A stretch of 64,000 nt of DNA from Mobula birostris (lineage: Eukaryota). The stretch lies in the NCBI RefSeq assembly GCF_030028105.1, contig NC_092393.1, positions 23,787,825-23,851,824 of the forward strand. Direction: 5' to 3'. Below are positions 1 through 60,653 of this stretch, piece by piece. Numbering within the stretch: the stretch's first letter is position 1; every line of letters starts with the position of its first letter. The position numbers and the translations under genes are program-made. Below the pieces are notes generated by a model that saw only the letters and a list, made by a program, of their open reading frames with translations, ran no database searches and had not been told where the DNA came from.

Positions 1-329
1 TGCTATACAAGCAGGACAGATACAACAGTAAATGAGTAACAAGACTCCAGAATGCAGAATTAATAAAATTATAAAATGCTTTAAAGAAAGTGTAATATGA
101 TTAAGTACAGTTAAAATGATTTTAAGAGGAGGAAATCATATTTAACAAATATAGTCATCTTTTTTCATCAGATGAAACTAACAGGATATATAATGGGAAA
201 CCCATACTGATAAAATGTCTGATTTTCCAAAGGTATCACACTTGTATCACACAGCACAAAACAAAATATTACTACAAATAATTTAACAAAATATAGCTCA
301 AAATGCATGTGAAATGGGCAGCACAGGTA

Positions 330-5450: not shown

Positions 5451-6109
5451 CTGTCAGAAAAAGATACAAGTGTTATGAGAAGAACAATTAACCCACATGA
5501 ATTAATCAATAAAGAAACAGGAGTTCTTTGCCACAAACATAGCCATGCTAGAATTTTTTTTTGCCAATCACTGATTTCAGTCAGGGTTGCTTTGTAAGAT
5601 TGGAAATGAGGAGATGGGAAGGTGGCATTGGGAAAGCACACCTGTGTAGCAATCAGTGTGGCTGTTTCTTGAAGGACAGAGGGTTAGGTACGGAGTTCTC
5701 TCTCTTATTCTACTTATAAATGCTTCATAAAAGCTTCTTTGACAATGCATCCAGTTTCCAGAACCAATTTCTTTAGTTGTTTCCATGTTCCCAAAAGCCC
5801 TGTGGAGATTCTCTTTTGGATAAGAAATGTCACATACAGCTACATTATTAAAATGCAGATCTTGTTCTCAATGTACTGCCAGTACTAAGAGCAAAGTGGT
5901 CAATCAAAATCAGTTTTTTTGCACAGCTGATATTTTGGTTCTTCCATATGTAATCTGTGGTTGGAACAGCACTAATGCATCAGATCTCCACAGCATTTTA
6001 ATTGCTGGGCAAGCAATTTTAGGGGACAGCCCCTTTCAAACTCAAATTTCAATGCAATAAGTCCAAATTCACTGACAGCACTATTATTGCTGAATGAATC
6101 ACAAGTGAT

Positions 6110-7271: not shown

Positions 7272-7421
7272 GACGAGAAAATCTGCAGGTTCTGGAAATC
7301 CACAAAATGCTGGAGAAACTCAGCAGGCCAGGCAGCATCTATGAAAAAGCGTAAACAGTCAACATTTCAGGAAGAGATTTGAAATGCCAACTGTTTACTC
7401 TTTTCCGTAGATGTTGCCTGG
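7272..7421. mobile_element. Penelope-derived palindromic element, older subfamily, centre deleted
   Basis: gagaaaatctgcag...cagcaggccaggcagcatctatgaaaaag with inverted cttttccgtagatgttgcctggc. Confidence 0.75.
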
Positions 7422-7657
7422 CAACACTGGTTAAGCTGTTATGCTCTGTTGTAACTGAGATCAATGAAGCCTCCAGACCAGACTGATTTTGTCACTTAGT
7501 ACAACAAATATCCCATGGACATACAAACTTGTTTTGTTTATCAATAATTGGTATACTTATGTACCAGCAAGTCAGCCCTCACAACACCAATCTTTTGGCC
7601 TGAGCTCTTTTCTTAAAAGCTTTAGCATATTCATGTGAACTACTTTGTTCTTGTAAA

Positions 7658-7891
7658 CGCAAACACGAGGAAATCTGCAGATGCTGGAATTTCAAGCAAC
7701 ACACATAAAAGTTGCTGGTGAACGCAGCAGGCCAGGCAGCATCTCTAGGAAGAGGTACAGTTGACGTTTCGGGCCGAGACCTTTTGCTAGTTAGTCCTGA
7801 CGAAGGGTCTCGGCCCGAAACGTCAACTGTACCTCTTCCTAGAGATGCTGCCTGGCCTGCTGCGTTCACCAGCAACTTTTACGTGTGTTGC
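7658..7891. mobile_element. Penelope-derived palindromic element with 13-bp TSD
   Basis: Near-perfect inverted arms of about 85 bp. TSD ttgttcttgtaaa at 7645-7657 and 7892-7904. Confidence 0.9.
7792..7829 (+). ncRNA. Minimal type I hammerhead ribozyme motif (one stem I mismatch)
   Basis: TAGTC-CTGACGA-A-GGG-TCTCGG-CCC-GAAA-CGTC-AACTG: both core boxes, stem II and an ACGU palindromic stem III are present. Confidence 0.7.
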
Positions 7892-7938
7892 TTGTTCTTG
7901 TAAAGGTGTTTTAACATTCAGGGGTGTCTTGTCAGTTA

Positions 7939-16776: not shown

Positions 16777-17690
16777 TAGATCCTTCAAAGTTGCTGTGAA
16801 ATTTGAAAGGATGGTTAAGACACATGGTTTAGCTGGTTAGGGGCCTTTCTTTAGTTAGGGGACTGAGTTCAAGAGCTGCAAGGTAAAATTGGTTGCCTCA
16901 ATTTTGGAAGGAAGTTGAAGCTTCAGAGAGGGTACAGAGGAGATTTACCAGGACGCTGCCTGAATTAGACAGCATGTCTCATGAAGGAAGGGTGAGCAAG
17001 CTAGGCCTTTTCTCTTTGGCATGAAGGAGGATGAAAGTTGACTTGATAAAGTTGTATAAAATGATAGGAGACATAGATTGAAGGGGACAGTAGCATCTTT
17101 TCCCAGGGTGCAAATAGCTAAAACAATTTTAAGGTGATTGAAGGAAAGTAATGGGTGGGTGTCAGAGGTAGTTGTTTTTTTAAAAATTTACACACAGAAG
17201 CGGGTGCATGGAATGTGCTACCAAGCATGATTGTACATATGTGTTAAGGATATTTAAGAGACTCTTAGGTAGACATATGGATGAAAGAAAAATGGAGTGT
17301 TATGCGGGAGGGAAGCATTAGTTTGATTTTGCAGTCGGTTAAAAGAAAAGTTGTGGGCTGAAAGGAGTCTACAGTGCTGCACTGTTCTATGTTCTAGTAC
17401 TTCACAGATTTCCAGAGGGTATATCTGTTCCAAATCAACCACTTAGGACAAGTACCAGTACAACCTGATGAAATGTGTCCTTAGCCACCACCATGCCTGA
17501 CAACTCCAGACAACAGTAATGCCAGCTACCCACATTTCATGATGAAATTCCTGCATAATAAGGCATTTTTCTGCAATGGCATAACCACTTAGTGGGAGTC
17601 TGGCATCCTTGATTGACCATTTCCTCTGTGTGGCTCTGAATTGGGTTTTTACAACAATCTTATCAGCACATAGTCATAATTATGATAATA

Positions 17691-17921
17691 AAAACAACAG
17701 GAATTCTGCAGATGCTGGAAATTCAAGCAACACACATGAAAGTTGCTGGTGAACGCAGCAGGCCAGGCAGCATCTGTAGGAAGAGGTACAGTCGACGTTT
17801 CAGGCTGAGACCCTTTGTCAGGACGTCCTGACAAAGGGTCTCGGCCTGAAACGTCGACTGTACCTCTTCCTACAGATGCTGCCTGGCCTGCTGCGTCCAC
17901 CAGCAACTTTCATGTGTGTTG
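17691..17921. mobile_element. Penelope-derived palindromic element with 16-bp TSD; hammerhead cores mutated (CTGACAA) on both arms
   Basis: Arms meet at ggacgtcc with no spacer. TSD cataattatgataata at 17675-17690 and cataactatgataata at 17922-17937. Confidence 0.9.
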
Positions 17922-20454
17922 CATAACTATGATAATATGGTTTCATTGTAGATTTATATTTTCTTAGCAAATGAAATTCCCCAACTCCTCTGGTGGAATT
18001 CTATTTCCTGTCTGTTACTAATCCAGTAGCAAGTTTTACCTTTTGTTACTATTTTAATAAGGACATCAACCCTCTTAATTATATTTATAGTCTCATTTGC
18101 AATTTAACCTCTGTCATCCAAGCTACTCTTACAAAAGAAATGTCATTAATTTTTCATGTAGTTTCTATACCCCAATTTATTGATGTTACAGGATTATGCA
18201 GCTACTAATAAAACAATATTCATGCAGTACCAAAGTACTGGAAGCTCTAGAGCAGCAAAAAAAAAATTATAAATATTTATGACATCACCACGTCAATAAA
18301 AGATATAAATAGAAAAGAATGCTTGACACCCTGGTGCAAAACTCCTTATGTTGTTTACTTCAGAGTCCATATCCAAACTGATAGCCAGAAAGCTTTCATT
18401 ATAAAGTTACCCATTATAAAGTCACTCCATTTCATAAACAATTTTTCTGCCAACCCATTTACAGACATTTCCTGAGCTCCTAATTCAGCTGGGTTTGCTC
18501 AGTTGATATCAGCCATGTGGAGCTGCAATAGAAAATACGCAATTTGGCAGTTTGCTTTCTTTCCAGTACTAGCAGCTGAGAGATCATGTCTAATGAGAAC
18601 ATTTAACCAAAATAGCAGCACTGAAAGTGGAAAAAGAAGCACCGAATCCAAAAACCATTTCTTCCATTTTTTAAAAACTGAACCTTTTAAGTTGATTGGA
18701 TATGCATCAACAATCTGTCATTAACTTGCCCCTGTACCTATTTTAATGCCAATAGTCAGAAGAGAAGTGGACATGATAGTTAAGTCCTTATTGATCATTA
18801 CATCCACGACTGGATATTCAAGACTATTTTAGCTGTATTCAATTAGTTAGCAAACATGGCAATTTAATAATTACAAGCTTAGGATCCAAAAGAATATTAC
18901 AGCAGAATGCAGCCTATTCCACCTGATGCCTGAGCTTTCTGCACTCAGCACTGAGTGCTAGCATTTCCTCTAGGTTGGCAGAATTGTGTTTCAAATATAA
19001 AGGAAAGGTAGTGTACACATCTTGTTGTCACTGAAAGGTTTCTTGTTCCTCACGGAAAGGATTCTGCTCGTTCATAATTGTACACACTCAAAGGATCATT
19101 TTCAAAGTAAACTCAACTTATGTGGAGGGCAGTAGTGGGCCAGCAGCGTATTGATGCAAAGTCCTATAATCTAGTATTTTTTTTTGCTGACTTTTGGAGA
19201 TAAAGAGACTTGAAGTAAATTAGTTCAGGGAGAGCTGAAGATTCAATTCATGGTTCTAGGACCACAAAATGTGTATCTGGTAATGATACTGCATAGAGCA
19301 AAAATATTTCCATTTCAGTAGCAAGTGCTCAATTCAATTTTAGATTGTTAGCATTGATACTGTTCCTTCCTCCCTCTTTCCATGCTTAGTTTCTCTCCCT
19401 CTTCTTTCCTTTATCTGTCACACACCCTCTGTAGTACCTGAGCAGGCATGACCAGCTATTCCAGGAACCTTGACAGAACAAATACTGCTTGCAGAGTTTA
19501 AGCTTATTTTACAGTAATTGGAGAGTCTCAGTTTTCTTTTGATAGCTAACTATTGTTTATGTATTGTTTCTTTCCTGGCTTTGCCCTTCATCAGTTGGAG
19601 ACTGGGATAAAGAAAAATCAAGGAGGAAACAACTTAAAGTTTCTTAAACTTGGAGTTCCTTAAAATAAGGTGCTGATGCCAAAACTGAAATTCTGAGTTT
19701 CCTAGTAATTTTAGTTTAGTGTGCCCTCCAATTTACTCAGGGGTGTGTTCCTAGAAAATTGTCCACAACACAACTTTCTACATGCAAACCCATTTTCCCC
19801 ACATTAAATCTCATATTACAAGTGTGGATACGTTCCCACAAGATTTCCTCTGAATAGTAATACAACATTGGTATACAGTCCACAGGCAACAAATCCGGAT
19901 CATAATGTAGACAAAGGAGTAATGTTGTTTTAATTGATTAGAAATGCACATTATATTTAACAAAGTATTATTGTACAATTGCCTAGACATTTTCTAAGCC
20001 AATATGTCCTCATGCTGACAGCAGGTCTGTGATTGTTATCTTTGGTCAACTAGTTCAATTCTCTGTATATTGTGTTTATTTAATTCTTTTCCCACTCAAA
20101 CAAATCAGCAAGCGCAGATTTTTAATCTGTACCTCAGTTTGTTTTTTTTTTTGCGTTTTCTGTACAGATGAGTGCCTATTGACTGAACTGATGTAACACA
20201 GGGGTGCGTTGGACTTATTTTGTTTGTAAAGTGTTGAGAATTAAATGGAGAAACATAAAGTATTCAAAAGTGACAGGCAGGTTACATTTAAAAATATCAA
20301 TATTTTACTATCAATAGCAAACTTCTTATTGGGCAAATGCAGTCAAAATTGCATTTAGGAGTGCTTAAAAAAACTTAACATTAGTTTACTTAAATTTAAT
20401 GATAAATAAAGCAACTTGAATGGCACCCCAAGAAATAATCACAATGACTCAAGG

Positions 20455-20630
20455 CAAACAAGAGAAAATCTGCAGATGCTAGAAACCCAAGCAACACACA
20501 AAATGCAGGTGGAACGCAGCAGGCCAGGCATCATCGAAAAGAGCCCTGCTGAAGGGTTTCGGCCTGAAACAGCAACTATACTCTTTTCCTAGATGCTGCC
20601 TGGCCTGCTGATTTCCTCCAGCATTTTGTA
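20455..20630. mobile_element. Penelope-derived palindromic element, older subfamily
   Basis: gagaaaatctgcagatgct...cagcaggccaggca, decayed core cctgctgaagggtttcggcctgaaac, inverted gatgctgcctggcctgctg. Confidence 0.8.
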
Positions 20631-20790
20631 ATAACGACTAAATGTTTTGCTTTATATTGTCACTATCTGACAAGTGTACGGGAAGTAGCAATAGAAGAGA
20701 AATAACACACAGCACCACAGAACTAAGGTCAAAATTTACAGCAAAAGGAAATAGTTTCTCAAGCTATCACCTTGTTCAATTGCAGAGATA

Positions 20791-22403
20791 CAGTGGCATG
20801 CAAACGTTTGGGCACCCCAGTCAAAATTTCTGTTACTGTGAATAGTTAAGTCAGTAGAAGATGAACTGATCTCCAAAAGTCAAAGTTAAAGATGAAACAT
20901 TCTTTTCAACATTTAAAGCAAGATTAGTGTATTATTTTTTGTTTTGTACAATTTTAGAGTGAAAAAAGGAAAGCAGCACCATGCAAAAGTTTGGGTACCT
21001 CAAGAGATTTGAGCTCTCGAATAATTTTTACCAAGGTCTCAGACCTTAATTAGCTTGTTAGGGCTATGGCTTGCTCACAGTCATCATTAGGAAAGGCCAA
21101 GTGATGCAAATTTCAAAGCTTTATAAATATCCTGACTCCTCAAACCTTGTCCTGACAATCAGCAGCCATGGGCTCCTCTAAGCAGCTGCTTAGCACTCTG
21201 AAAATTAAAATAAATGATGCCCACAAATCAGGAGAAGGCAATAAGAAGATAGCAAAGCGTTTTCAGGTAGCTGTTTCCTCAGTTCACAATGTAATTAAGA
21301 AATGGCAGTTAACAGGTACAGTGGAGGTCAAATTGAGTTCTGGAAGACCAAGAAAAGTTTCCGAGAGAACTGCTCGTAGGATTGCTAGAAAGACAAATCA
21401 AAACCCCCATTTGACTGCAAAAGATCTTCAGGAAGATTTAGCAGACTCTGGAGTGGTGGTACACTGTTCTACTGTGCAGCGACACCTGCACAAATATGAC
21501 CTCCATGGAAGAGTCATCAGAAAACCTTTCCTGCGTTCTCACCACAAAATTCAGCATCAGAAGTTTGCAAAGGAACATCTAAACAAGCCTGATGCATTTT
21601 GGAAACAAGTCCTGTGGACTGATGACGTTAAAATAGAACTTTTTGGCCACAATGAGCAAAGGTATGTTTGGAGAAAAAGGGTGCAGAATTTCATGAAAAG
21701 AACACCTCTCCAACTGTTAAGCGCGGGGGTGGATTGACCATGCTTTGGGCTTGTATTGCAGCCAGTGGCACAGGGAACATTTCACTGATAGAGGGAAAAA
21801 TGAATTCAATTAAATACCAGCAAATTCTGGAAGTAAACAACACACCCTCTGTAAAAAAGCTGCAGATGAAAAGAGGATGGCTTCTACAACAGGATAATGA
21901 TCCTAAACACACTTCAAAATCCACAATGGACTACCTCAAGAGGCGCAAGCTGAAGGTTTTGCCATGGCCTTCACAGTCCCCTGACCTAAACATCATTGAA
22001 AATCTGCGGATAGACCTCAAAAGAGCAGTGCGTGCAAGATGGCCCAAGAATCTCACAGAATTAGAAGCCTTTTGCAAGGAAAAATGGGTGAAAATCCCCC
22101 AAAGAACTGAAAGACTCTTAGCTGGCTACAGAAAGTGTTTACAGGCTGTGATACTCGCCAAAGGGGGTGTTACTAAGTACTGACCATGCAGGGTGCCCAA
22201 CCTTTTGCATCGGGCCCTTTTCCTTCTTTGTTATTTTGAAACTGTAAAAGATGGAAATAAAAAAGTAATCTTGACTTAAAATATTAAAGAAATATGTCAT
22301 CTTTAACTTTATGCCTTTTGGAAATCAGGTCATCTTTTACTCGCTTAGCTCTTCACAGTAACAGAAATTTTGACCGGGGTGCCCAAACTTTTACATGCGA
22401 CTG
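20791..22403 (+). mobile_element. Full-length Tc1 (DD34E) DNA transposon with IR/DR-type long TIRs
   Basis: TA|cagtggcatgcaaacgtttgggcacccc ... ggggtgcccaaacttttacatgcgactg|TA. TIRs of about 210 bp with inner repeats near 20980-21000 and 22190-22210. Confidence 0.96.
21168..22183 (+). pseudogene. Tc1 transposase broken by one frameshift
   Basis: Paired-like HTH, GRPRK, WTDD, QQDNDPKH and SPDLNIIE motifs with 34 residues between the second D and E. Frameshift in the A-run near 21672-21678. Confidence 0.93.
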
Positions 22404-25262: not shown

Positions 25263-26523
25263 CTGTAAATTCTGGTGTATAAGCTGAGAATTTGGCCCTA
25301 AATTTTGGTACTAAAATTAGGGGGTCGGCTTATACAGAGGGTGCCAACTTTGGGAAAATGAATTCACAGAAAAGAGATTGTATTTATTGGCTGTTTTTGA
25401 GTCAAATTCGTTCCACTGTCGACGCATGAATTCTTTGAATGGTTTGTTTAAACTCACATCTAGTGGCTGGAGCACGGACATCAAACCATCGGGGATGACT
25501 GCATTGTCCGTATTTTCAGCTTTCAATGCTTTTTTTATCTCACCTGACAAGTGCGCTTTGAACATGTCCCATAAAAGTAGCGACTTTTCCTTCCCGAAAC
25601 CTTCGGGATGTCAATGCCACACCTCTTTAACCCACTTCAAGCAACCTGCTTCATGCATCCAGCAGCGTTTTTGGACGTAAACAACAACACCCCGTGGGAA
25701 TTTTCTGAGCAACCTTTGTTTTTTGTCTCAACGCAAGATCACGTCTATTCATAAGTCGAGTGCACCAACTTCGCGTAGCTTTAAAATTTTCTCTGACCTC
25801 ACTGTGTTTTTCGTCCCATTTCAACGCTTGAACTCGAATCATTTCTCTGGTAACAATGTATCCAGACGATCGCTCGTGATTCATCCACTCTAAAATGTTT
25901 TCTTCCAGTTCTGGCCACTGGCATGTTTTTCCACGGTTTGCACATTTCGTCTTTGGCATTTCCCTCAGTGCGTCCTCTGCCTTTCTCCACTCTCTCACTT
26001 GTTTCTCGTTTACACCATACTTCTTAGCAGCTGCAGAATTATTCGTTCCTTCAGCAAAATCAACAACCTTCAGCTTGAAGCCAGCATCACATCACATTTG
26101 TTTTAATCTTTTGTACATGGTGGTCGCAAACTCAATACTGAGTACACGTACTGATCCCACCACTCCGTGTTATGTTTTAACGAGATTACGATGGGCGCTA
26201 AATGGTTTCATGGGGGTTACATTCCAGAGGATTCTTTACCATTGGAGACCTAATCCAAAATTTCCCTCCCTGATTTATTTGTTAAAAATTCGCTTATAAC
26301 GCTCTACAATGTGTAGGCCTGTTTTCTTAGCAGGTACTGGTTCACAAAATTTCCAGGTTCCAGATCCGGCAAAGCTGAGTACCAGCATGTGAGATCTTGT
26401 GATCTTTTCTGGTTAAATCAAAAACCTCTACAAAAGGGGTCGGCTTATACAAAGGTAACATGAAAAAGTCACTTTTTTAACCTTGAAAATGGGGGGGGTC
26501 GGCTTATACTTCGGAATATACGG
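25263..26523 (-). mobile_element. pogo/Tigger-superfamily DNA transposon, internally deleted
   Basis: TA|ctgtaaattctggtgtataagc ... gcttatacttcggaatatacgg|TA. Encodes Brinker/CENP-B-like HTH remnants (VREWRK, WPELE, SWCTRLMNRRDLALRQKT) and the DDE fragment AVIPDGLMSVLQPLDVSLNKPFK. Confidence 0.9.
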
Positions 26524-32040: not shown

Positions 32041-34915
32041 AGACCATAAGATATACAGAAGAAGTAGGCCTTTTGGCCCTTCAGGTCTTCTCTACTATTT
32101 CATCTTGGCTGATCCATTTCCCTCTCAGCCCCAATCTCCTGCCTTCTCCCCACAACCCTTCATGTCGTGATTAATCAAGAATCAGTCAACCTCTGTCTAA
32201 AATATGCCCAATAACTTGGCCTGTAGCAACGAATTCCACAGATTCACCACTCTTTGGCTAATGAAATTCCTCATCTCCATTCTAAATGGACATCCCTCTA
32301 TTCAAAGGCTGTACCTTCTCCACATAGACTCCTCCACCAAAGCAAACACCCTCCCCACATCCACTCTGTTCAATAGGTTTCAATTATGTTACCCCACATT
32401 TGTCCAAATTCCAGCGAGATGAAGCCAAAGCCATCAAATGCCCCTCATATGATAAGCCTTTCAATTCCAGAACCTCCTTTGAACCCCCTCCAATGTCAGC
32501 ACATCCTTTTTAGATAAAGGGACCAAAATTGCTCACAATACTCCAAATTAGCCTTGCCAATGCCTTATAAAGCCTCAACATTATATTCTTGCTTTTATAT
32601 TCTAGTCCTCTCGAAATGAACGATAACATTGCACTTGCCTTCCTCACTGCAGACTCAACCCTTAGGGAATCTTGCATGAAGACTCCCAAGTCCCTTTGTA
32701 CCTCAGATTTTTGAATTTTCCCTCCAGTTAAAAAAAATCTACTCTTTTAGTTCTTCTGCCAGAGTGCATGTCCATACACTTCCCGACACTGTATTCTGTT
32801 TGTCACTTCTTTGCTAATTCTCTTAAGTCCTTCTGTAGCCTCCCTGCTTCAACACTACATGCCCCTCCACCTATCTTCGTATCGTGCACAAAGCCATCAA
32901 TTCTGTCATCCAAATCATGGACATATAATGTAAAAAGTAGTCCCAACATAGACCCCTGGGGAACACCAACTGGAAAAGGCTCCCTTTCTTCACAGTCTTT
33001 CCCTCCTGCCAATCTGCCATTGCTCTGTCCATGCTGGCATCTCTCCTGTAATACATTGGGTTCTTCACTTGTTAAGCAGTCTCACGTGTGGCACTTCTGA
33101 AAATCCAAGTATATAACATCCATGATTCTCCTTTGTCTGTCCCGCTTGTTATTTCTTCAAATTGCAATAGATTTGTCAGGCAAGACTTTGTCTTCAGGAA
33201 AACATGCTGACTTTGGCCAATTTATCATGTACCTTCAAGTACCCTGAAGCCACAGTCTTAACAATTAACTCCAATGTCTTCCCAACCACTGAGATCAGAC
33301 TAACTGACCTATAATTTTCTTTCTTCTGCCTCTATCCATTCTTGAAGAATGGAGTGATATTTGCAATTTTCCAGTCCTCCAAAACTATGCCAGAATCCAT
33401 TGATTCTTGAAAGATCATTACTAATACCTCCACTATCTCTTCAGCCACCTTTCAGATATCTGGGTTGTTGACCATCTGGTCCAGGTGACTTACCTAACTT
33501 CAGACCTTTCAGTTTCCGAAGCACTTTCTCCCTCATAATGGCAACTTCACTGGCTTCTGCCCCCTGACACTCTCAAATGTCTGGCATACAGATCATGTCT
33601 ACCACAGTGAAGAATGATGCAAAATAGTTATTCAGTTAGTTCACCATTTCCTCGTCCCCCATTACTACCTCTCCAGCACAATTTTGTAGTGATCCTCTGT
33701 TCTCGCCTCACTTTTACACTTGATATAGCTGAAAAAACTTTTAATATTATTGGCTAGCTCACCTTTGTATTCCATTTTTTCCTTCTTTATGACTTTTTAG
33801 TTGTCTTCTGTTGGTTTTCAAAAAGCTTCCCAATCCTCTACCTTCCCACTAATTTTTGCTCTATTACGTTTCCTCTCTTTGGCTTTTATGGTGGCTTTGA
33901 CTTCACTTGTCAGCCACAGTAGTATTATCCTGCTTGGCTATCACCCCTGCTACTGTTCCCTTCCAATCAACTTTGGCCTCGTCCTCTCTCATGCCTTTGT
34001 AATTCCCTTTACTCCACTGTAATACCAATGATACATCTGACTTTAGCTTAGTCTTCTCAAATTGGAGGGTGGAGTCTATATATTATGACCACTGTCTTCT
34101 AAAGGTTCCTCTTCCTTAAGCCCTTTAACCAATTCTGGTTGATTGCACAACGCCCTAACCAGAATCACTGATCCCCAGTGGGCTCAACCATGAGCTGCTC
34201 TAAAAATCCACCTTGTAGACATTCCACAAAATCCCTCTCTTGGTATCCAGCACCAATCTGATTTTCCCAACCTACCTGCATATTGAATTCCCCAATGACT
34301 ACTGTAAAATTGACCTGTTGACACGTACTTTCTATCTCACATTGGAATTTGTGGACCACATATTTGCTACTGTTTGGAAGTTTGTATACAACTCCCATCA
34401 GGGTCTTTTTACTTTTGCAGTTTCTTAGCTCTACTCACAATGATTCAACATTTTCCGATCCTACATCACCTCTTTCTAATGATTTGGTTTCATTTTTTAA
34501 CCAACCCCACCCCACTCCATAGGCCTACCTACAAGTCCTTTCGACACACTGTGTATTCTTGGACATGAAGTCCCAGCTATAATCTTCTTTCAGCCATGGT
34601 TCAGTGATGCCCCCAATGCCATTCATGCTAATCTGTAACAGTGCTACAAGATAATCAATCTTATTCTGTATACTATGTGCATTTAAATACATCACCTTCA
34701 ATCCTGTATTCATCACCTTTTTTAACGCAAACAACAGGAATTCTGCAGATGCTGGAAATTCAAGCAACACACATCAAAGTTGCTGGTGAATGCAGCAGGC
34801 CAGGCAGCATCTCTAGGAAGAGGTACAGTTGACGTTTCAGGCCAAGACCCTTTGTCAGGACTAACTGAAGGAAGAGTTAGTAAGAGATTTGATTTGATTG
34901 CCTTTCTTGCTGTTC
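32041..34915 (-). mobile_element. Older CR1 LINE (ORF2), 5'-truncated
   Basis: MYLNAHSIQNK endonuclease start, GVPQGSMLG, DTKIGG and tcttatggtct tail. Many indels. Confidence 0.9.
34724..34890 (-). mobile_element. Single-arm Penelope pseudo-LTR fragment with mutated hammerhead core
   Basis: Same arm as the palindromes but no inverted copy. Minus strand reads TAGTC-CTGACAA-AGGGTCTTGGCCT-GAAA-CGTC-AACTG. Confidence 0.85.
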
Positions 34916-39889: not shown

Positions 39890-41086
39890 GTGCATAACAA
39901 GGTTTCACAAATTCCGATGCAATCCATTAACAGATAATACAGAATGTGATCTGAACTGTTAGTTGGAGAAAGAAAATTGATGGTCACTATTGTTTTTGGA
40001 TTATGCATAACAATCTTATGTACAGCTAAGGCACAGTTCATGCCTAGTGTCTCATCCTTAAGCACCAGCACCAAGAGAATTGCATTCAGCCAAAATCATG
40101 AGTACATCTCTCTCAAAGGAAAATGTTGCCAAAACTGGAACTCTGAATTAAAAGAAACTACAGGAAAGTCAGATGAGGTGGTATGTGCTGGGAGACAAGT
40201 ATTATTTCAAGTGGATAACATTTCTGATCTTCACACAGCAAGGTCATTTAACCTGCAACAAAAGCAATCCAAATTACTGAGCATCTTCTATTTTCAACTC
40301 AAATCCTTATTTGTTCTGGAACTTATTTTCTGATTCAGTGGCAGGAGTGCTATTGATGCTTAATAAGCATCATAATGCCAGAGCAATAAAACTCAGAATT
40401 TACTAACATATATTGCATTGGAAGATATCCTCCAAAATAAAGCTGTTCCAGAAAAGAATTGCACAATAATTCTGTAAGTCAACTGATACTAATTGTAGAC
40501 ACAATACTATTAGATATTTAATACCATATTCCAAATGATACCCCGTTAAAAAAATAACCAGCTCCTTAAAAAGCACTTTAGTCTTACAATACCATTCTAA
40601 AGTTGTTAATGTAGGTTGTCTATTCTATCCTTCCAAAACACAGGTCTAAATATAATACCCTTAGAAAAAGATGAAATATCTTTACATTGTGCTCAATCAA
40701 TGAGACTAATGCAGATGTTTTAGATTAAAATAGAATTTCAAAGCTTGAGTATTCCTTACAACAGTGACATTATGTCCCGTAATTACCTTTCCTATAAAAT
40801 TTAAATGGCGTAAAGAACAAGCTTTCTTTTCGGTGTAATCTTTTACAATAATGTGATCCTAAGACACCTGAGTGATTTTCTGCCCTAATCTTTTACTAGA
40901 ATATTTAATTTTTGAGTTGAAGACAATGTAAATAAAAACAGGGCGTTCTCACAATCATTAAGACATTACGTATTTCGTACACAAGTAAAACGAATTTAAA
41001 AGGAGCCTGCAACCTAAAACAGCAAACATCCTATTTGCTTGCATTCTTATTTGATGTTTGCTTTTTGGTGGGCTGTACCTACTCAC

Positions 41087-41228
41087 CCATGTTGTAACCA
41101 TACGGCGACTCACTGGCTCCATCCTGCAGGCTGGCCAGGATCTCCCCCTTCCCAACATCACTGTCACCCACCAGCAGGAATTTCAGGAGAAAGTCGTAAG
41201 CCTTCACCGGGCTGCCCTTGTTGCTCAT
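41087..41228 (-). CDS. RAB40B: Ras-related protein Rab-40B, coding exon 1 (142 bp)
   Basis: Translates [48 protein letters not shown], the Rab40 N-terminus with the GDSDVGKG P-loop. YDFLL and ILASL match RAB40B rather than RAB40C. Ends at a GTGAGT donor. Head-to-head synteny with FN3KRP matches human 17q25. Confidence 0.95.
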
Positions 41229-41985
41229 CCTCTCACAAACAACGCTCCATACTGGAACGGACTGGCGGCAGTTTATTTCGTTAAGCAAGTAAAAATTCAT
41301 TAAACAAGTTTCAACTCGCCCTACGCCGCCACCATTCACTTTCCAGAGAAAATTCCTCGGGTGGCTCGCGCTGCAACCATTCGCCGTCCAAAACCCACAG
41401 GAAAACCTGTCGTCTCCTCTCCGTCCACACAGATTTACTTCTCACTAACTATTCTAGGCTGCCAAAGGTGCGGTACTCTTCAATGTTTCCCACAGTTCCC
41501 ACTTTAAACCCCTCAGAAGTAGGATGAATACACTCCATCGCTTCTGTACACACACGACTCTCACCCCTCTGCCATCCAGTGTGCTCTGGCGCTTCCATTA
41601 TTGGTTATCATAAAATATAGGCGGTTCCGAGTCCCCAAATTCTATTACACTATTGGTCATCTCGGCTATCAATCATAGACAACACCCGCCCCTCTCCGTT
41701 GTTTACATATCGTATCGCCAGGGGTTTCGGCCACCACTGGGCGCGATGCATTAAGGGAATTGTAGTTCTCTTTGGCAATTAGCCCGCTTTTCGCAAGTCA
41801 GCGAACACGAGTTTAAGTTGCTCCTATTGTAACTAAAAATACCCCCAAATAACTGCAGCTTTAAGTTATGTACATTTAATTCCTCACCGATAGGCATATC
41901 ATTTTTAATATGCATTAAAATCAGGCGATCAATTGACCACTCCTGTTGGAGCTCCGGGAAGGTGATTGGCAGTCGAGAACTGAAG
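41229..41985. promoter_or_regulatory. Bidirectional promoter and 5' UTRs of RAB40B and FN3KRP
   Basis: 757 bp between divergent ATGs, visibly more CpG-rich than the flanks and free of recognisable repeats. Inverted CCAAT boxes (ATTGG at 41600, 41652, 41965) and a GC box CCCGCCCC at 41685-41692. Confidence 0.85.
41748..41766 (-). promoter_or_regulatory. ZNF143 (SBS)/THAP11-type ACTACA motif
   Basis: Minus strand reads ACTACAATTCCCTTAATGC, close to the ACTACAnnTCCCAnnATGC consensus. Confidence 0.75.
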
Positions 41986-42126
41986 ATGGAGAATGTGCTG
42001 AAGAGAGAGCTAAACACAGCTCGCCTGAAGGGATTCGGATATGCAGGGGGTGGGTGTATTAGCCAAGGGCAGAGTTATGAAACGGATTCAGGAAGAGTGT
42101 TTGTCAAAGTCAATCACAAAAGCCAG
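41986..42126 (+). CDS. FN3KRP: Ketosamine-3-kinase / fructosamine-3-kinase-related protein, coding exon 1 (141 bp)
   Basis: AAGATGG Kozak context. MENVLKRELNTARLKGFGYAGGGCISQGQSYETDSGRVFVKVNHKSQ contains the GGGCIS P-loop (C24) and VFVK lysine (K41). CAG|GTTAAT donor. Confidence 0.93.
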
Positions 42127-44508
42127 GTTAATGCATTTACTTTATGGTTTGTATCAATGTTGACATGGCGTATGTGTTTGAGAGAGATGGGGAGGGCCTA
42201 TACTGTTCTCTTAGCATTACAGACGCTGGCAGAAGAACTGAACTCTAAGGAAGAATGGGATATAGTTTGGCGTTCCAGTCCACAAAAAAAGACGCAGGCG
42301 AACGAGTTCACTAAAATAATGGGGGAGGTAAACTTGAATGCAATTTAAGTGAGGTACAGCTTCAAATGAGTGAAATGGATTTCTGACGTATATTGAATCT
42401 TTCATCCAGGAATGATATATGGATGGGTTAAACTTCCAAATAGGAATAGATGAAATTCCGAAAGAGCATTAGTGAATACCACTTTTGAGACTGGCTTAGA
42501 CTTTTAATGAATAGATTAATTTGATAGTATTAATGATATTTCTGAATAGATGTATTTCTGGGAAATTTTTTCGCCACATTTTCTATCTCTGTTGATGTTA
42601 TAGTTAAATAGAAAGGTGAGTGTATTGACAGTTTTACTATAGCTAACAAAAGAACCGATCCAAGAAAATGGAAAAGACCAACTATTGTCAATATGGTTTG
42701 TTTAGTATTTGGATACTTGCTGAAGGGCCTAGACAGCTATACAATTTTTGAGACTCTAAGTTAACACTTGAAGGTCCAGGCAATATTAAATTGCAAAAAG
42801 CACTTTAATCCATAATTCTTTTCATAGGTGCAAAAGGTTTTTTTTTACTACAGTATGTTTAAAATTTAATGTTAAGACAAATATGGTGCCTATTGAAATT
42901 GTTAATGACATTTTTTAAAGATAGTAAAAATAGTCTTGTAAACTGTTAGGGTTTTGAGCCAAAGGCAGGAAGCTAAATTATAATACCGTTACACCATGTT
43001 AAATAGTTTCTCCTTAAAAAGAAAGGTATACCAATTCCATTGAAAACATCATTGATATTCTTGTTTCACTTTTTTTTCTGTGCAGCCAGGAATAACTTTG
43101 ATAAAATTATTTGGTTGGTTTTTATTTGGTCTGGAATCTGAGAGCACATGGAATCCAACTAGTGTATTCAATACAAAATTGTCCTGGTGAAAGGAGGAGA
43201 GTTGTCTTTTGTATTGGGAGGACTCTGACCGGTGGTGTGCCATAGGGATTGTTGTTTCTTATCTGTGTTTATGATTTTAAAGTTCGAAGTACATTCATTA
43301 TCAAAATATGTATACTATATGCAATCTTGTGATTTGTCTCCCTATAGGCAGGCAGGCACAAAACTTAAGAAATCCATTAAAAAAAAAGGCCATTAAACAC
43401 CTGATGTGCAAAAAAAACAGATTATGCAAACAATAAAAGTAAGCAAGTTACATTCAGAACTAAAGCTCATGAAAGTGAGTTCACAGCCACGAAGCCAGTC
43501 ATCACTGCAGCCGGTCCAGGAGCCCGTTAGTTGCAGGCGACAGCCTCAGTTCAGTGCAGAGACGAGTAAACCTTACAGGGCAGCAAGCTGAACACTGGCC
43601 TGTCCATCACGTCCAGCTCCAACACCCTAACCTTTTCAATCTGACCTGGTATGCATGTCAGCCAACCATCGGCTTTTTCCATGCTCTTGGACCTGGGCCC
43701 AATGTCTTGATTTGCCGCATACCTGACCTTTTCCATCTGGCTCGGCTCATTCCTCACTCTCAGGTCTGAGCCCCACTGCGTTGATTCTGCCTGGCCTCCC
43801 CTTGGATCTGTTGTTTTGATTGGCTCCAAGTCTGTTTTATCAATGGCCAAACATTGGCTTATTTCTCGGGCTTGGGACTAGGCCTCGCCATCTCAGTTTG
43901 GCCACAACCATCCTGCACCTTCATGGTTTCAGTTCACACAACAAAAATGCCAGGTTGTACAGGCGGTTCAAAAGTTCAACTCTGAAAAGGAAATTACAGG
44001 CTATTGATTACAGTGATAACTGTCTACGAACAGTGCGATTAATAGTGTAGTTAGTAGTTTTGTTTGCTGCCAGTAAGGCGTTGCTGTGTTAATAAGGTTG
44101 TTAATTTGTTTAGTAGAATCAGCCAAAATGCCAAAGTTGATGGTGTAGAGGTGAAGGGGGTTACAAAGTTTACAAGGGTTCTAGACCAACTTGGGAAATG
44201 AGCCAGAGAACAGCAAATGGAATTTAATTTGGACAGGTGTGAAGTGTTGCACTTTGGTAAGTTAAACCAGGGCAGGACTTGAACAGTAAATGGTAGGGCC
44301 CTAGAAAATGATGTTGAACATTCTTTTCATATGGGTACAAGGAATATGATTTTATTTGCTTAAGCACTGTACCTCTCTGATATGTTAATCTTATTTTTGT
44401 TCTGGAGCTAGTGTCTATTGTTCTGTCACAGTTTCGGGAATACGTATAGTAAGGAAAAATATTTGTATCACTGTAAAGTTAACAGCTTATACAAGATGTG
44501 TCTGCATA

Positions 44509-55421: not shown

Positions 55422-55639
55422 CACAAACAGGAGAAAATCTGCAGATGCTGGAAATCCAAAGCAACACACACAAAATGCTGGAGGTGCTCAGCAGGCCAGG
55501 CAACAGCTATGGAAAAGAGTAAACAGTGGGCATTTTGGGCAGTCTTGATGAAGGGTCTTGGTTCAAAATGTTGACTGTTTACTCTTTTCCATAGATGCTG
55601 CCTGGACTGCTGAGTTCCTCCAGCATTTTGTGTGTGTTG
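55422..55639. mobile_element. Penelope-derived palindromic element, older subfamily, 14-bp degenerate TSD
   Basis: Inverted arms. TSD catgaggttagctt at 55408-55421 and cataagattagctt at 55640-55653. Core decayed (cttgatgaagggtcttggttcaaaatg). Confidence 0.85.
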
Positions 55640-56219
55640 CATAAGATTAGCTTATATACACAGACTGAATGCACGTACATAAAGTGATGCTAGCTGCAGG
55701 AGTATCTAAGTATAAGGTGACTCTGACAAGAAATGATAATGTGACTCTTGGGACAGGGAACTCTTCTAGGTAGTAGGAGGGCATATGAAAATATAGGACA
55801 GTGACTGTCAGTGTAGGTATTAGGCATGGAGAGTAATCGTAAAATGGCAGTGCATGGGGTTTGACGGATGCTGAGGGGCTGTGGAGAAGAGTAGCTGATG
55901 TGGATGGGGTGGTGGTGGGGGTTGCTAATAGTTGGAGGTGTTGATCAGCCTGACATCTTGGGGGAATTAACTATTTTTGAGTGATCAGCTCTTTACAACT
56001 TAATGATCTTTTTTTGTCTAAGTCTTAAATTCCACTGAAGGATTCTTAACCTAAAATGTTTACCATTTTTCTTGCTCCTTAGATGTTGCCTTGATGTGCT
56101 GAATATCTTCAGAATTTTTTGTTTGTATTTTTCTGTATGAGGTTTTAATTTCGTATCAGTCATCATAAAAATGTTCAGAGGAATGGAAAAAATATCTAAA
56201 CTGTACGGTATTATAAACT

Positions 56220-57140
56220 TAGAACACAAGATTATGGGAAAATAGGAGGAATATGTTATTTGGCCCTTCAAACCTGTCCCACCTTTTAAAATGATCATTG
56301 ATGATCTAAACTGGCATCGACTCTCTTTGTGTCATTTTTCCATAAGCTTCTGTTCCTTCATGTATCCAACTCCTCTTTAAATATTTCTGATGTTCCAAAT
56401 TCCACCACCATCTAAGTAAGAGAATTCCAGAAATTTACCATTCTTTATGAAAACAAATATCTATGTGTCTCAGTTTAAAATGACTGGCCCTTTCTTATTA
56501 TGTCTCTTTGTTTGACACTGTCCCACTTCTGAAAAGATTACAACAGCTACCCTGTCAGGTTCCCTTAGGATCTTGTATGTTTAAATAAGATCACCCCTCA
56601 TTCCCCTAAACTTCAAGGAATATGGGCCCAAACTATTTGGTCTTCCTGGCAAATGAGAAAATCTGCAGATGCTGGAATCCAAGCAACACATACAAAATGC
56701 TGGAGGAACTCAGCAGACCAGGCAGCTTCTGTGGAAAAGGTGCTGAGATCCTCTAGCATCTTGTTTGTGTTGCTCGTCTCCCTTGGTTAGGCGACCCTCT
56801 AATTCCAATCTCCTTTGCACTCATTCCAGTGTTATCCTTTCATTCAATAAGGAGATCAAATTGCTACACAGTATTCCAGGTTAGGCCTCTCCAACACCCT
56901 GGACAATTTTTGTAACGCCTCCCCATCTTTAAACTCCAACCCCTTTGCAGTACAGGCCAAAATGCCCTTTGCCTTCAGAACTACTTGCTGGATCTGCACG
57001 CTAGCTTTTTATGACTCATGCACTAGGACAGCTTGATCCTTCCGTTCTTCACTCACAGTCAGTCTCTTTCCATTTTGATCATTTCTCTTTTTGATTTACT
57101 GTGTCCTACCAAAGTGCATGATTCCCACTTTCCCACTTGA
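56220..57140 (-). mobile_element. Old CR1 3' fragment containing a collapsed Penelope palindrome (56650-56773)
   Basis: agatcacccctcatt and cacagtattccagg blocks. The insert reads gagaaaatctgcagatgctgg...tgtgttgc. Confidence 0.7.
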
Positions 57141-57538
57141 AAGTTATTTCCCATGGTAGAGATATGGCAGAGTTATTTCCCATGGTGTGGGAGTCTTGGA
57201 CAAGAGGGCACAACTTCAGGACTGAAGGACATCCATTTAGAACAGAGATGCGGAGAAATTACTTTAGTCAGTGGGTGGTAAATCTATGGAATTTGCTGCC
57301 ACGAGTGGTTGTGGAGGCCAAGTCATTGAATGTATTTAAGACAGAGATAGATTCTTGATTAGCCAGGTCATCAAAGGGTATGGGGAGAAGGCAGGGGAGT
57401 ATGGATGACTGGAAGAATTGGATCAGCCTATGATTGAATGGTGGAGCAGACTGATGGGCCAAATGGCCCACTTCTCCTATATCTTATAAAAGTTGCTGGT
57501 GAACACAGCAGGCCAGGCAGCATCTCTAGGAAGAGGTG

Positions 57539-57576
57539 CAGTCGACGTTTCAGGCCGAGACCCTTCGTCAGGACTA
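57539..57576 (-). ncRNA. Minimal type I hammerhead ribozyme motif, best-preserved copy
   Basis: Minus strand TAGTC-CTGACGA-AGG-GTCTCGG-CCT-GAAA-CGTC^GACTG: intact core, stem I UAGUC/GACUG, stem II AGG/CCU, ACGU stem III, GUC cleavage triplet. Confidence 0.8.
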
Positions 57577-57603
57577 ACTGCAGGAAGAATATCTTCCTTC
57601 AGT

Positions 57604-57641
57604 TAGCCCTGACGAAGGGTCTCGGCCTGAAACGTCGACTG
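57604..57641 (+). ncRNA. Minimal hammerhead motif on the opposite arm (one stem I mismatch)
   Basis: TAGCC-CTGACGA-AGG-GTCTCGG-CCT-GAAA-CGTC-GACTG. Confidence 0.7.
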
Positions 57642-58966
57642 CACCTCTTCCTAGAGATGCTGCCTGGCCTGCTGCGTTCACCAGCAACTTTTATGTGTGT
57701 TGCTTGAATTTCCAGCATCTGCAGAATTCCTGTTGTCTCCTATATCTTATGGTCTTATGGAAACTTCATTTTCCTTTTTTGCCCACTCACTCAGTTTGTC
57801 CTCAGTCAGTTGCAGAATTGTGTTATCTTTACCACACCATGCCCTTCCAGCTATTTTCATATCACCAGCAAATTTTGAAACCTTGCATACTGTTCCTTCC
57901 TCCAGGTCATTAATTTAAATAGTGTACAATTGTGGGCCAAGAGCTGATTCCTGCAATGGTTACACCCTTACATTCTGAAAAGGGCCCATTTATTATAACC
58001 CTTATATTTTCTCTGTGACAAGCAGTTTCCACTCCATTGAAACAGCCGCCTTCTGATTCTTGACTAAGCCTTTTTGAAATCTAAATACATTTTATCTGCA
58101 GATTCTCCTCAAAAGTTAGGAGCAAACTTCACTTACTTTTATAAAACTATGTTGATGAGGTTTAATTATATTCAGCTTTCCTAAAAGATCAAGTTTTTTC
58201 TTATTTGATTATTACTTGATCATTTACAGTTTAAACAAACTGGCCTTTAGGTTTCTGTCCTCTGTCTTTCTCCTCCTTTTGAGCAAGGGAGTCACATTGA
58301 CTATTTTCCAATCTTCTGGTAAAAATTTCAATCAGTGCATTATGGAATTAGTGTATTTGGTCTGTAGTGACTTAATTATACATTGTGGGCAACAATCAAA
58401 TCAGAAAATGCTCAACAGGTCATGCAGATTTATTGTAAGAAAAACAATATTTAATTTTCAGACCAAAGCCTCCTCACCAAAAACTGCCTGAGTATTTTCT
58501 GCTTTTATACAGTGACCTGCATTTCAGACTTCTCAGTTTCTGCAAGTTTTGATTTGATTGTGGAACAGTAGTTTGGTTTGCAATTGGGGATCTGTGGATC
58601 AGGTTGCAGGTCAAGCCTGGAGTTCTGTGTTGGACAAACTGGGAGCTAAAAGCAAAAAAGTTGGTTCATTTTCCTCTTGCCTTGGAATTGGATGCATAGT
58701 TCTTGAGATTATAATTGAAAATCTTAAGTTTATGTGTGGTAGTATAAAGGACACACCATGGTTAATGGAAATTCTAAAATCATTTTAGATATTTTTACAT
58801 GATTTGTCAAGCCATGTAAATAATGCCAAAAAGATAGTCAATGTGGATGACAATTGATTTGCCACATGGAAGGTCCAAGGTGGAATTAAATATTACTCCT
58901 TGGTTTATTTATGTCAAAAGCTGTTGGAAAAGATGCCTGTGTTCAGTTCTGATGTTTCTTCTCTAG

Positions 58967-59058: not shown

Positions 59059-59649
59059 GTAAGGTACCAATGTTTACTCAGAACTTGGTCATTTGTAATT
59101 GGCTTTAGCATGATGAATTTTGCAACTTGGGATTCTAAATCTTCGGAACTTAAGGATTAAATCAGTTAAACTTTGGAGAAGTCTTACTCTTTTTGAATTA
59201 CAATTTTAGTTGTAAAGGATTCAGATGCCCTGAAAAATGCTGATCTCTTTATGAAAAAGTACACACTGTACCTTTAAGCGCATAGGATTTATTGATTCAT
59301 CTGAGGAATTATCTGATAAAATAGTGTAATTGTATTGTACTGTGAAATACTGTAATTTACCATTGAACTGTCAAGGAATTGGTAATGAAGCATTAAGGTA
59401 GATGAAACCTTGTGAATCTTTTGCAGAGCAGACTCAATGGGCCAAACGGCCTACTTCTGCTCCTATATCTTATGGTCTTATATAGGTTACCACTTTTTGC
59501 TACCTTCTGAAACTGAGCAGTACTGAAGATGAGCAGTTTCTAGTTCCTGGGTGTTAGCCTCTCTGAAAATCTATCCCAAGTTCATCATATTGGTGCAATT
59601 ACAAAGAAGGCACGTCAGCGGCTATATTTCACTAAGAATTTGAGGACAC

Positions 59650-60653
59650 ATCTAATATCCCTCTGCCCTTTCTCGATCTCTCAGTCTCCATCTCTGAGAC
59701 AAACAGTCTACTGACATCTTTTATAAACCTACCGATTCCTACAGCTATCTTGACTATACTCTTTCCCACCCTGCTTCCTGTAAAAATGCAGTTTTCTTTT
59801 CTCAGTTCCCTCGTCTCCACCCCACCTGTTCCCACGAAGAGGCTTTCCTTTCCAGGATATCAGAGATGTCCTCCTTCTTCAAAGAATGGGATTTCCCTTC
59901 CTCTACCATTAATACTCCCCTCACTGATATCTCCCCCATTTTTGGACATCCACTGTCACCCCCACCTTCCCACTGCTTGAACGGGGATAGAGTTCCTCTT
60001 GTTCTCACCACTCCATGAGTCAGAGCATCCAGCAGATCATTCTGCAAAACTTTGGCCATCTTCAATGAGATCTTACCACCAAACATATCTTTACTCTTTC
60101 CCTCCCCCCCCACTTTCTGCAGGGATCAATCCCTCCATGATTCCCTTGTCCATTGGTTTCCCCCCCCCCACTCATCTCCCTCCTGGCACATATCCCTGCA
60201 AATGACAGAAATGCTACACCTGTCCATTCGCCTCTTCCCTTAACTCTATTCTGGGCCCCAAAAAGTCCTTCTAGGTGAGGCAGTACTTCACCTGCAAATC
60301 TGTTGGGGTCGTCTACTGTACTGATGCTGCCAGTGCAGCCTCTTTACATTAGTGAGACCCGACGTAAGTTGTGGGACCGCTTTGTTGAGCACCTCCACTC
60401 CATCTGCAAAAAGTGGAATTTCCTAGTGGCCAACTATTTTAATTCTTATCCCAATACCTGTTACACTGTATCTGTCTACAGTCTCCTTATTTGCCACAAT
60501 GAGGCTACTCTCAGGATGGAGGAGCAACACCTCATATTCTGTCTAGGTAGCCTCCAACCTGATGGCATGAACATTGATTTCTCCTGTTTTTTTTTCTATT
60601 CCTCTTCCCTCTTCTTCTTTTCCCTCTCTGGTCTCTTACCTCTTCACTTGCCT
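59650..60653 (+). mobile_element. Penelope-like element ORF remnant (RT C-terminus and GIY-YIG endonuclease)
   Basis: LPFLDLSVSI, YKPTDSYSYLDY, YISETRRKLWDRFVEHL and EEQHLIFCLGSLQPDGMNIDF. Cut at the 3' side by a CR1 insertion. Confidence 0.88.

What the first reader, a model, noticed from the sequence alone, without database searches (positions are those of the whole stretch)
57473..57750. Short non-autonomous palindromic retro-elements carrying hammerhead ribozyme motifs on both strands
Seen in sequence: a ~250-bp insertion with a perfect 15-bp TSD, whose two inverted arms each contain CUGAnGA, a stem-loop, GAAA and CGUC. In the minus-strand arm stem I pairs fully (UAGUC/GACUG) and stem III is only the ACGU palindrome. 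At least eight related copies occur in the window (7272, 7658, 17691, 20455, 34724, 55422, 56650, 57488). Established knowledge: Penelope-like elements carry minimal type I hammerheads in their pseudo-LTRs, which are thought to cleave as dimers through a palindromic stem III, and they often leave inverted pLTR copies. Inference: this is a high-copy, ORF-less, ribozyme-bearing fold-back family mobilised by the local Penelope RT/GIY-YIG machinery. It behaves like a retrozyme or SINE and is probably mislabelled or unlabelled in repeat libraries.
Basis: partly seen in the sequence, partly recalled or inferred. Interest (0 to 1): 0.85.

Follow-up and report, generated by a model that had tools for sequence, protein, structure and literature searches.

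The report
Back-to-back Penelope transposon stubs, one tail
This 250-base mirror-image insert is two cut-short copies of the end of a very abundant protein-coding jumping gene (a Penelope-like element), not a gene-less family of its own; it carries an already known kind of small RNA motif predicted to cut itself, and the two copies were likely written separately from the two cut strands of the target DNA.

Summary
A perfect 15-bp TSD flanks two inverted arms, each with a minimal type I hammerhead motif. The reading as a non-autonomous retrozyme/SINE family fails. The arm is the pLTR end of an autonomous Neptune/Nematis-type Penelope-like element (PLE), and full-length copies carry a 1,005-1,042-residue RT plus GIY-YIG frame. 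The palindromes belong to one series of 5'-truncated insertions: single or head-to-head, from under 100 bp to over 2 kb, TSD median 14 bp, 51 different arm-start pairs in 53 inversions. Hammerheads in pLTRs, inverted truncated copies and one-sided tails are in print. Measured here: of 54 head-to-head insertions with both ends at a mapped 3' site, 53 pair a tail-less arm with a tailed arm, and 23 of 53 are non-nested. This favours two target-primed cDNAs, one per strand and start site, over published self-priming. Short copies tend to start at the ribozyme's front edge, not at its cut site. No covariation was found and cleavage is untested. This scan reported the same reading before, in this genome and others.

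The parts
57473..57487 (+). Left target-site duplication (15 bp)
   Evidence: Exact repeat; single in the sister host repeat at 59440-59481
57488..57588 (-). Inverted, tail-less arm: PLE pLTR end, arm positions -3 to about 97 (3' end class A)
   Evidence: 97% to the natural pLTR of full-length copy L084; end class
57539..57576 (-). Minimal type I hammerhead motif with intact stems I and II; predicted cut 57544/57543
   Evidence: Core and stems checked; fold; activity untested
57589..57591 (.). Three-base joint between the two 5'-truncated ends
57592..57735 (+). Tailed arm: PLE pLTR end, arm positions -3 to 140 (3' end class B)
   Evidence: 98% to L084 pLTR; continuous with the coding body in longer copies
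57605..57640 (+). Minimal type I hammerhead motif, intact core, C.A mismatch in stem I; predicted cut 57636/57637
   Evidence: alternative fold
57703..57735 (+). One-sided 'tail' between the two preferred 3' ends; in full-length copies it continues towards the ORF start
   Evidence: 3' ends bimodal; tandem junctions in L083 and L084
57736..57750 (+). Right target-site duplication (15 bp)
7658..7894 (.). Sister head-to-head insertion, one tail, one intact core, 15-bp TSD with one mismatch
17690..17922 (.). Sister head-to-head insertion, one tail, both cores broken by the same change, 16-bp TSD with one mismatch
34726..34892 (-). Single tailed arm without an inverted partner
55422..55640 (.). 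Older-subfamily head-to-head insertion with decayed motifs (likewise 7272-7430, 20455-20640, 56650-56775)
59658..60583 (+). Decayed coding fragment (RT end, Cys linker, GIY-YIG region) of an older related PLE
   Evidence: 71% to a full-length copy; frames

Best explanation
The insert is two 5'-truncated copies of the terminal repeat of an autonomous Neptune/Nematis-type Penelope-like retrotransposon, joined head to head, and they were likely made by two separate priming events at one insertion site. Shown: the arm is the element's pLTR end; inversions have individual centres; TSDs are about 14 bp; 3' ends fall at two sites about 35 nt apart; one arm ends at each site. Inferred: the element's GIY-YIG nuclease would nick both strands about 14 bp apart. 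Each DNA end would prime reverse transcription inside the RNA, one at the upstream site (no tail) and one at the downstream site (tail), probably by a protein dimer. The two cDNAs would then be joined at their truncated ends by microhomology or a few untemplated bases. If only one end primes, a single arm of either class results. Inferred more weakly: the many 100-150-nt arms arise because the two start sites lie close to the 5' end of pLTR-initiated RNA, so the RT runs off uncut RNA at the ribozyme's front edge. The hammerhead is a passenger of the pLTR. The two motifs lie on opposite strands, so no single transcript of the insert carries two of them in tandem.
For: Copies picked by the sense arm continue upstream into one shared sequence for 50 to over 1,500 bp. 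That sequence encodes PLE RT and GIY-YIG. Of 12 long-frame loci, L083, L084 and L081 show direct pLTR-ORF-pLTR with this arm at both ends. 3' ends of 158 young segments: 72 at arm 90-119, 86 at 129-155, none at 120-128. Of 149 young insertions with both ends in view, 54 had both outer ends at a mapped site: 53 A+B, 1 B+B, 0 A+A (binomial p 6e-15 against 0.5). 84 were single (54 B, 30 A), with TSDs of 9 bp or more in 22 and 16 of them. 48 of the 54 have such TSDs; the shifted control gave 2 of 149; median TSD 14 bp, n=92. 51 distinct arm-start pairs in 53; in 23 of 53 the tail-less arm runs 8 or more nt further 5' than the tailed arm, so neither arm contains the other. 7 of 53 pairs differ at two or more subfamily-diagnostic sites (read), so two templates were used at least sometimes. 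In vitro, the anole PLE protein nicks and extends both strands, starts at two internal sites bounding the tail, is predicted to be a dimer and uses uncut RNA (PMC11167929). 5' ends: 45 of 158 at arm 1-15 (3.0 per nt) against 22 in -50..0 (0.43 per nt). In 29 copies picked only by their 3' part, 16 start at -3..51 and none at -133..-4.
Against: All mechanistic steps are read from genomic scars; no activity was measured. 11 further inverted structures had one arm ending elsewhere and are outside the 54. L219 and L230 look like one duplicated insertion. 80 of the loci were picked for an intact core, which depletes 5' ends at arm 16-100. 29 loci were picked for a tail (11 of the 53 pairs come from them). 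Arms agree at 81% of diagnostic sites against 50% for shuffled pairs and share rare variants (16 against a mean of 1.1). This fits one RNA, one active source or later conversion, and is also what self-copying predicts. In the anole assay the start site did not differ between strands, so the strict one-of-each rule is not explained by it. The 5' pile-up spreads over about 15-50 nt and borders a pyrimidine tract with a conserved splice-acceptor-like AG, so a transcription start is not proven. A cap-derived extra G was suggestive only: 6 of 7 junctions at position 10, two explained by the partner arm.
Confidence: 0.78

Rival explanations
1. Same PLE origin, but the inverted arm arises by self-priming or snap-back copying of one template (the published reading of head-to-head PLE structures).
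For: PMC3846280 reads palindromic junctions as self-priming on an antisense template (passages). Arms are more alike than random pairs and share rare variants. 23 of 53 junctions show overlaps of 1-10 nt.
Against: A copied arm must lie within its template, yet 23 of 53 pairs are non-nested. Tail-less arms also occur alone with TSDs (16 of 30), so they are primed from the target. 7 of 53 pairs differ at two or more diagnostic sites.
Confidence: 0.1
2. A non-autonomous, ribozyme-bearing hairpin family (retrozyme- or SINE-like) that is copied as a unit by the PLE enzymes.
For: Short palindromes are abundant: 39 of 53 pairs are 300 bp or less. L248 and L249 share the same junction with different TSDs. 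Animal retrozymes derive from pLTRs (bioRxiv 10.64898/2026.07.22.740005).
Against: 38 distinct junctions in 39 short pairs; the shared one sits on a 4-nt microhomology. Lengths form a continuum up to 1,378 bp with coding DNA inside, and single arms are more common than pairs (84 against 54). There are no tandem same-strand motifs in the insert. Only 1 of 8 window copies keeps two cores.
Confidence: 0.05
3. Double priming as in the best explanation, but the arms are short because the RT drops off at the pyrimidine tract or splice-acceptor region before the ribozyme, or copies a spliced RNA, not because the RNA starts there.
For: A pyrimidine tract plus AG directly before stem I is kept in young and old subfamilies. 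An intron ending at helix I is reported for D. virilis Penelope (PMC4209133). The 5' ends are spread, not sharp.
Against: Loss per base falls to 0.04-0.07 within the rest of the pyrimidine-rich 3' UTR. No shared upstream exon is seen at the junctions.
Confidence: 0.3
4. A MITE or other DNA-transposon derivative with long terminal inverted repeats.
For: Hairpin shape; Rfam returns only weak miRNA-hairpin matches.
Against: Variable 12-16-bp TSDs, asymmetric ends, 5' truncation, and continuity with an RT-coding element.
Confidence: 0.01

Closest known systems
Endonuclease-bearing Penelope-like elements with an inverted 5'-truncated copy and a one-sided 30-40-bp tail (PMC8557442, passages; PMC3846280, passages)
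   Same: pLTR-ORF-pLTR tandems, frequent 5' truncation, head-to-head inversion, tail on one end, variable TSD, and the CX2-5CxxC linker of the Neptune/Nematis type.
   Different: The passages call the tail optional and explain the inversions by self-priming. Here the one-tail rule is nearly strict (53 of 54) and the arms are often non-nested. TSDs are longer (median 14 against 8-10 in the rotifer).
Minimal hammerheads of metazoan PLE pLTRs (PMC4209133, first half read)
   Same: Type I motif, extra base before stem II, palindromic stem III without a loop. Most copies are single and tied to truncated PLEs. Opposite-strand pairs 100-700 bp apart are already reported there.
   Different: Another host and family. 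The main young subfamily has G.U in place of the conserved G10.1-C11.1 pair in 119 of 170 copies. No compensatory changes among the families sampled.
Poseidon of Anolis (PAc) in vitro (PMC11167929, first half read)
   Same: Two internal RT start sites bounding the tail, both strands nicked and extended, AT-rich targets (TSDs 64% AT here), uncut RNA as template.
   Different: Other clade. In PAc the ORF starts inside the ribozyme; here the first ATG lies about 135 nt beyond the ribozyme's end. The text read does not link double extension to head-to-head insertions.
Animal non-LTR retrozymes (PMC7229834, passages; bioRxiv 10.64898/2026.07.22.740005, parts 1-3 of 5)
   Same: Short, ORF-less, hammerhead-bearing, pLTR-related.
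   Different: Retrozymes are head-to-tail repeats with same-strand motifs that release a monomer or circle. This insert is head-to-head, with opposite-strand motifs and an individual centre.

Membership tests
EN+ Penelope-like element | Single ORF with RT and C-terminal GIY-YIG nuclease | tested here: met
   1,042- and 1,005-residue frames in L083 and L084. RVT_1 E 7e-6 to 3e-3, below Pfam's cut-off. GIY-YIG 22.7 bits against a cut-off of 22.6. DKG motif and two cysteines inside GIY-YIG.
EN+ Penelope-like element | Partial tandem giving direct pLTRs, with this arm at their ends | tested here: met
   Direct repeats of 756-1,033 bp ending in the arm in L081, L083 and L084
EN+ Penelope-like element | 5' truncation, inverted copy, 30-40-bp tail, variable TSD | tested here: met
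Neptune/Nematis clades | CX2-5CxxC motif in the RT-EN linker | tested here: met
   C-X4-C-X2-C before the nuclease; definition in PMC8557442
Neptune (against Nematis) | Placement in an RT phylogeny | not tested
   No named reference sequences were held; Neptune is the one of the two reported in vertebrates
Minimal type I hammerhead of PLEs | Conserved core, stems I and II, palindromic stem III, location in the pLTR | tested here: met
   the majority base is the same in young and other subfamilies at 35 of 37 positions (arm 10-46)
Minimal type I hammerhead of PLEs | Compensatory base changes in the stems | tested here: inconclusive
   88 copies: 84.1% of cells paired against 83.3% shuffled (54 of 500 reach it); covariation score reached by 90 of 500; only one-sided G.U/G-C and U.G/U-A changes are common. 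Dead copies decay neutrally, so the test is weak.
Minimal type I hammerhead of PLEs | Self-cleavage as a dimer | not testable with these tools
   Needs a bench assay; the RNA runs available were contigs only
Non-LTR retrozyme | Head-to-tail repeats with two or more same-strand ribozymes | tested here: not met
   Motifs on opposite strands, no tandem units in the insert
Non-LTR retrozyme | Expressed as monomeric linear or circular RNA | not testable with these tools
SINE-like non-autonomous family | A fixed unit with shared internal structure that is copied whole | tested here: not met
   51 distinct arm-start pairs in 53; 38 distinct junctions in 39 short pairs

The most novel reading that the evidence does not exclude
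Penelope-like elements integrate by obligate asymmetric double priming. A dimer nicks both strands about 14 bp apart and assigns one RT start site to each DNA end, sometimes on two different RNAs. The commonest template is the element's own uncut mRNA leader, which begins at the hammerhead. Tens of thousands of short ribozyme palindromes would then be run-off by-products that record both the transcription start and the integration mechanism, replacing the self-priming model.
Probability: 0.45. Interest if true: 0.55.

Novelty: new member of a known kind. Interest (0 to 1): 0.3.

Why it matters
The element and its ribozyme motif are of known kinds. The value lies in the statistics of a very large young family, which bear on an open point: how PLEs form inverted, one-tailed insertions (called undefined in PMC8557442). 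The near-strict one-tail rule and the non-nested arms give a direct prediction for the existing in vitro system. For annotation, such palindromes should be filed as PLE fragments, not as MITEs, miRNA hairpins or retrozymes. In 0.8 Mb of evenly spaced samples the family covers 5.5% of bases.

Tried and rejected
Rfam scan: no hammerhead family, only weak miRNA-hairpin matches below gathering score. Folding of the motifs: not better than shuffles. Covariation: none beyond controls. Cleaved RNA as main template: rejected for my samples. 2 of 158 5' ends lie at arm 41-44 and 1 of 29 at the cut. 51 fold-backs genome-wide are centred on the palindrome around the cut (seven in one cluster that looks duplicated) against 47,289 cores, with no microhomology control, so they are not counted as evidence. 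Cap-derived extra G: inconclusive. A shared upstream exon at the junctions: not seen. An apparent wall at arm -3: partly an artefact of a private change in the reference copy. Expression: no RNA holder listed; the four runs laid were contigs and cannot show starts, ends or strand. A genome-wide count of two-arm variant combinations was not obtained, so arm concordance rests on 53 held pairs. One reference search returned nothing. One gave places but no loci. A Pfam accession was not in the library. Literature: no paper held all of Penelope, Neptune, elasmobranch and genome. Searches for double priming in PLEs returned no paper stating it, but subscription papers are missing from the library. 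The figure supplements of PMC11167929 (text search empty) and the bioRxiv supplements were not seen and may bear on the 5'-end claim. Lunse et al. was seen only as a reference entry.

Full report
1. Observation. The insert spans 57488-57735 between exact 15-bp repeats. It sits in the 3' end of a LINE-like repeat (the label CR1-like is recalled). A sister of that repeat at 59440-59481 shows the duplicated word once. The arms match at 95 of 97 bases and the plus arm is about 40 nt longer. I number the arm from 57596 (position 1). Both arms keep the hammerhead core. The minus arm has a full stem I, the plus arm a C.A mismatch, and stem III is the bare 4-nt palindrome. Folding is not exceptional (z -1.15 and -0.66) and Rfam has no matching family. 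All eight listed copies exist. Seven are head-to-head, but only this one has two intact cores.

2. What the arm belongs to. The genome is 4.0 Gb; that it is a cartilaginous fish is my recall of the repeat, not a call result. The 20 best fold-back matches (one is the window copy) differ in centre and left end. Of 30 loci picked by the sense arm alone, most continue upstream into one shared sequence, for 50 to over 1,500 bp. That sequence encodes an RT and a GIY-YIG nuclease. A 177-residue RT piece had 27,156 first-look candidates, 150 scored, with open frames up to 1,112 residues. Of 12 long-frame loci fetched, L081, L083 and L084 are partial tandems with this arm at the end of both direct pLTRs; L083 and L084 have frames of 1,042 and 1,005 residues. 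The L083 protein has DKG, a C-X4-C-X2-C linker and two cysteines within GIY-YIG, the marks of the Neptune/Nematis type (PMC8557442, passages). Pfam RT scores are below the cut-off. An exact degenerate core pattern matches 47,289 times, control 0. In 80 evenly spaced 10-kb samples the family covers 5.5% of bases and gives 92 terminal hits.

3. Anatomy of insertions. Sample: the 80 evenly spaced loci, 80 loci around the first core matches, 29 of 30 loci picked by the tailed 3' part (the query itself dropped) and the window. Only hits of at least 86% identity were used. The 3' ends fall in two groups about 35 nt apart: 72 and 86 of 158 segments, none between (first two sets plus window). Among 149 insertions with both ends in view, 54 had both outer ends at these sites (53 A+B, 1 B+B, 0 A+A), 84 were single (54 B, 30 A), and 11 inversions had one arm ending elsewhere and were not classed. 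One pair of loci looks duplicated. TSDs of 9 bp or more flank 48 of 54 pairs and 38 of 84 singles, control 2 of 149, median 14 bp. The 53 pairs show 51 different arm-start combinations and lengths of 140-1,378 bp; 39 are 300 bp or less. The tail-less arm is longer upstream in 23, the tailed arm in 20, and 10 are level. In 4 of 21 young insertions from the evenly spaced 0.8 Mb the structure is a short pair, roughly 20,000 genome-wide with wide error. So the palindrome is made anew at each insertion and is not an inherited unit.

4. Mechanism. Shown: two 3' end sites, one per arm, non-nested arms, and TSDs on single arms of both classes. A snap-back copy must lie within its template, and 23 of 53 pairs do not. 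Arms agree at 139 of 172 diagnostic comparisons (81%; shuffles mean 50%, maximum 64%) and share 16 rare variants (shuffles mean 1.1), yet 7 of 53 differ at two or more of four diagnostic sites (the last count read by eye, and one site lies by a T run). Inferred: staggered nicks on both strands, each end priming a cDNA at one of two internal start sites, usually on the same or a sister RNA and sometimes on a different one, then joining of the truncated ends. This matches the anole PLE protein, which nicks and extends both strands, starts at two sites bounding the tail and is modelled as a dimer (PMC11167929, parts 1-2 of 4). That assay saw no strand difference in start site. The published alternative is self-priming (PMC3846280, passages).

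5. Why so short. 45 of 158 segments start at arm 1-15, the front edge of stem I, against 22 in the 51 bases before and 2 at the cut site (the core-picked loci deplete positions 16-100). In the 29 tail-picked copies, 16 start at -3..51, none at -133..-4, and 13 are longer. The simplest reading is run-off from uncut RNA that begins near the ribozyme, while long copies come from read-through tandems. This is inferred. A pyrimidine tract with a splice-acceptor-like AG sits at the same place in all subfamilies, the cap signature is inconclusive, and no usable RNA reads were available.

6. The ribozyme. Young and other subfamilies share the majority base at 35 of 37 motif positions, differing at the free core position and at one pair-keeping stem II position. 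Formal covariation does not exceed controls convincingly. Minimal hammerheads in pLTRs, their palindromic stem III, weak dimer activity, their presence in Neptune elements of fishes, and opposite-strand pairs 100-700 bp apart are all in PMC4209133 (parts 1-2 of 4); see also PMC6765202 and PMC6155905 (passages). Activity of this motif is untested. The insert cannot supply two same-strand motifs in cis.

7. Comparison and novelty. It is a member of the EN+ PLEs by every feature tested. It fails the retrozyme test of same-strand tandem motifs (PMC7229834, passages; bioRxiv 10.64898/2026.07.22.740005, parts 1-3 of 5) and the SINE test of a fixed unit. The inverted copy and one-sided tail are in print. 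I found no paper stating the one-site-per-strand reading, in a library that lacks most subscription papers. A sequence look-up in the scan's notes found nothing. Word look-ups made after my analysis showed 1,184 notes with these words, 176 fitting in this genome, and several with the same double-priming and run-off readings. These are unchecked AI notes and are not counted as support.

8. Verdict. Observation confirmed; interpretation partly supported; new member of a known kind; interest 0.3. The testable residue is the one-tail, non-nested rule.

Noticed in passing
window 41079-41441 (-) and 41833-42348 (+): Two divergent first-exon-like frames: a small GTPase start (RAB40-like, name recalled) and a fructosamine-kinase-like start (Pfam E 0.001). 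The insert may lie in an intron of the second gene.
   Followed up: no
window 21156-22183 (+) and 25651-26091 (-): Broken Tc1/mariner transposase and a pogo-like DNA-binding fragment.
   Followed up: partly
L083:4103-4575 region and equivalents in L081, L084, L087, L089, L092: A tandem repeat of about 210 bp (87-94% identical) inside the N-terminal part of the PLE ORF, present in some full-length copies and not in others.
   Followed up: no
L082 oriented 3556-6758: A 1,047-residue frame that begins in the pLTR arm of an older subfamily (76%) and runs into the young body, possibly a template switch between subfamilies.
   Followed up: no
arm positions -10 to 11, all subfamilies (window 57592-57606 +): Branch-point-like word, pyrimidine tract and AG directly before stem I, as for the 5' UTR intron of D. 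virilis Penelope; no matching donor or spliced copy was identified.
   Followed up: partly
L222:3936-4672 and L269: Insertions holding pieces of the ORF's 5' half between or beside terminal arms, which points to template switching during integration.
   Followed up: no
G000:C17:31.97-32.59 Mb: Seven identical matches to the fold-back centred on the cut-site palindrome, probably one segmentally duplicated insertion.
   Followed up: no
window 57607 (+); L021-L050: A stem I-breaking U-to-C variant shared by most near-identical copies found with the sense arm. A lineage with an impaired ribozyme stem still spread, which fits cleavage not being needed for mobility.
   Followed up: partly
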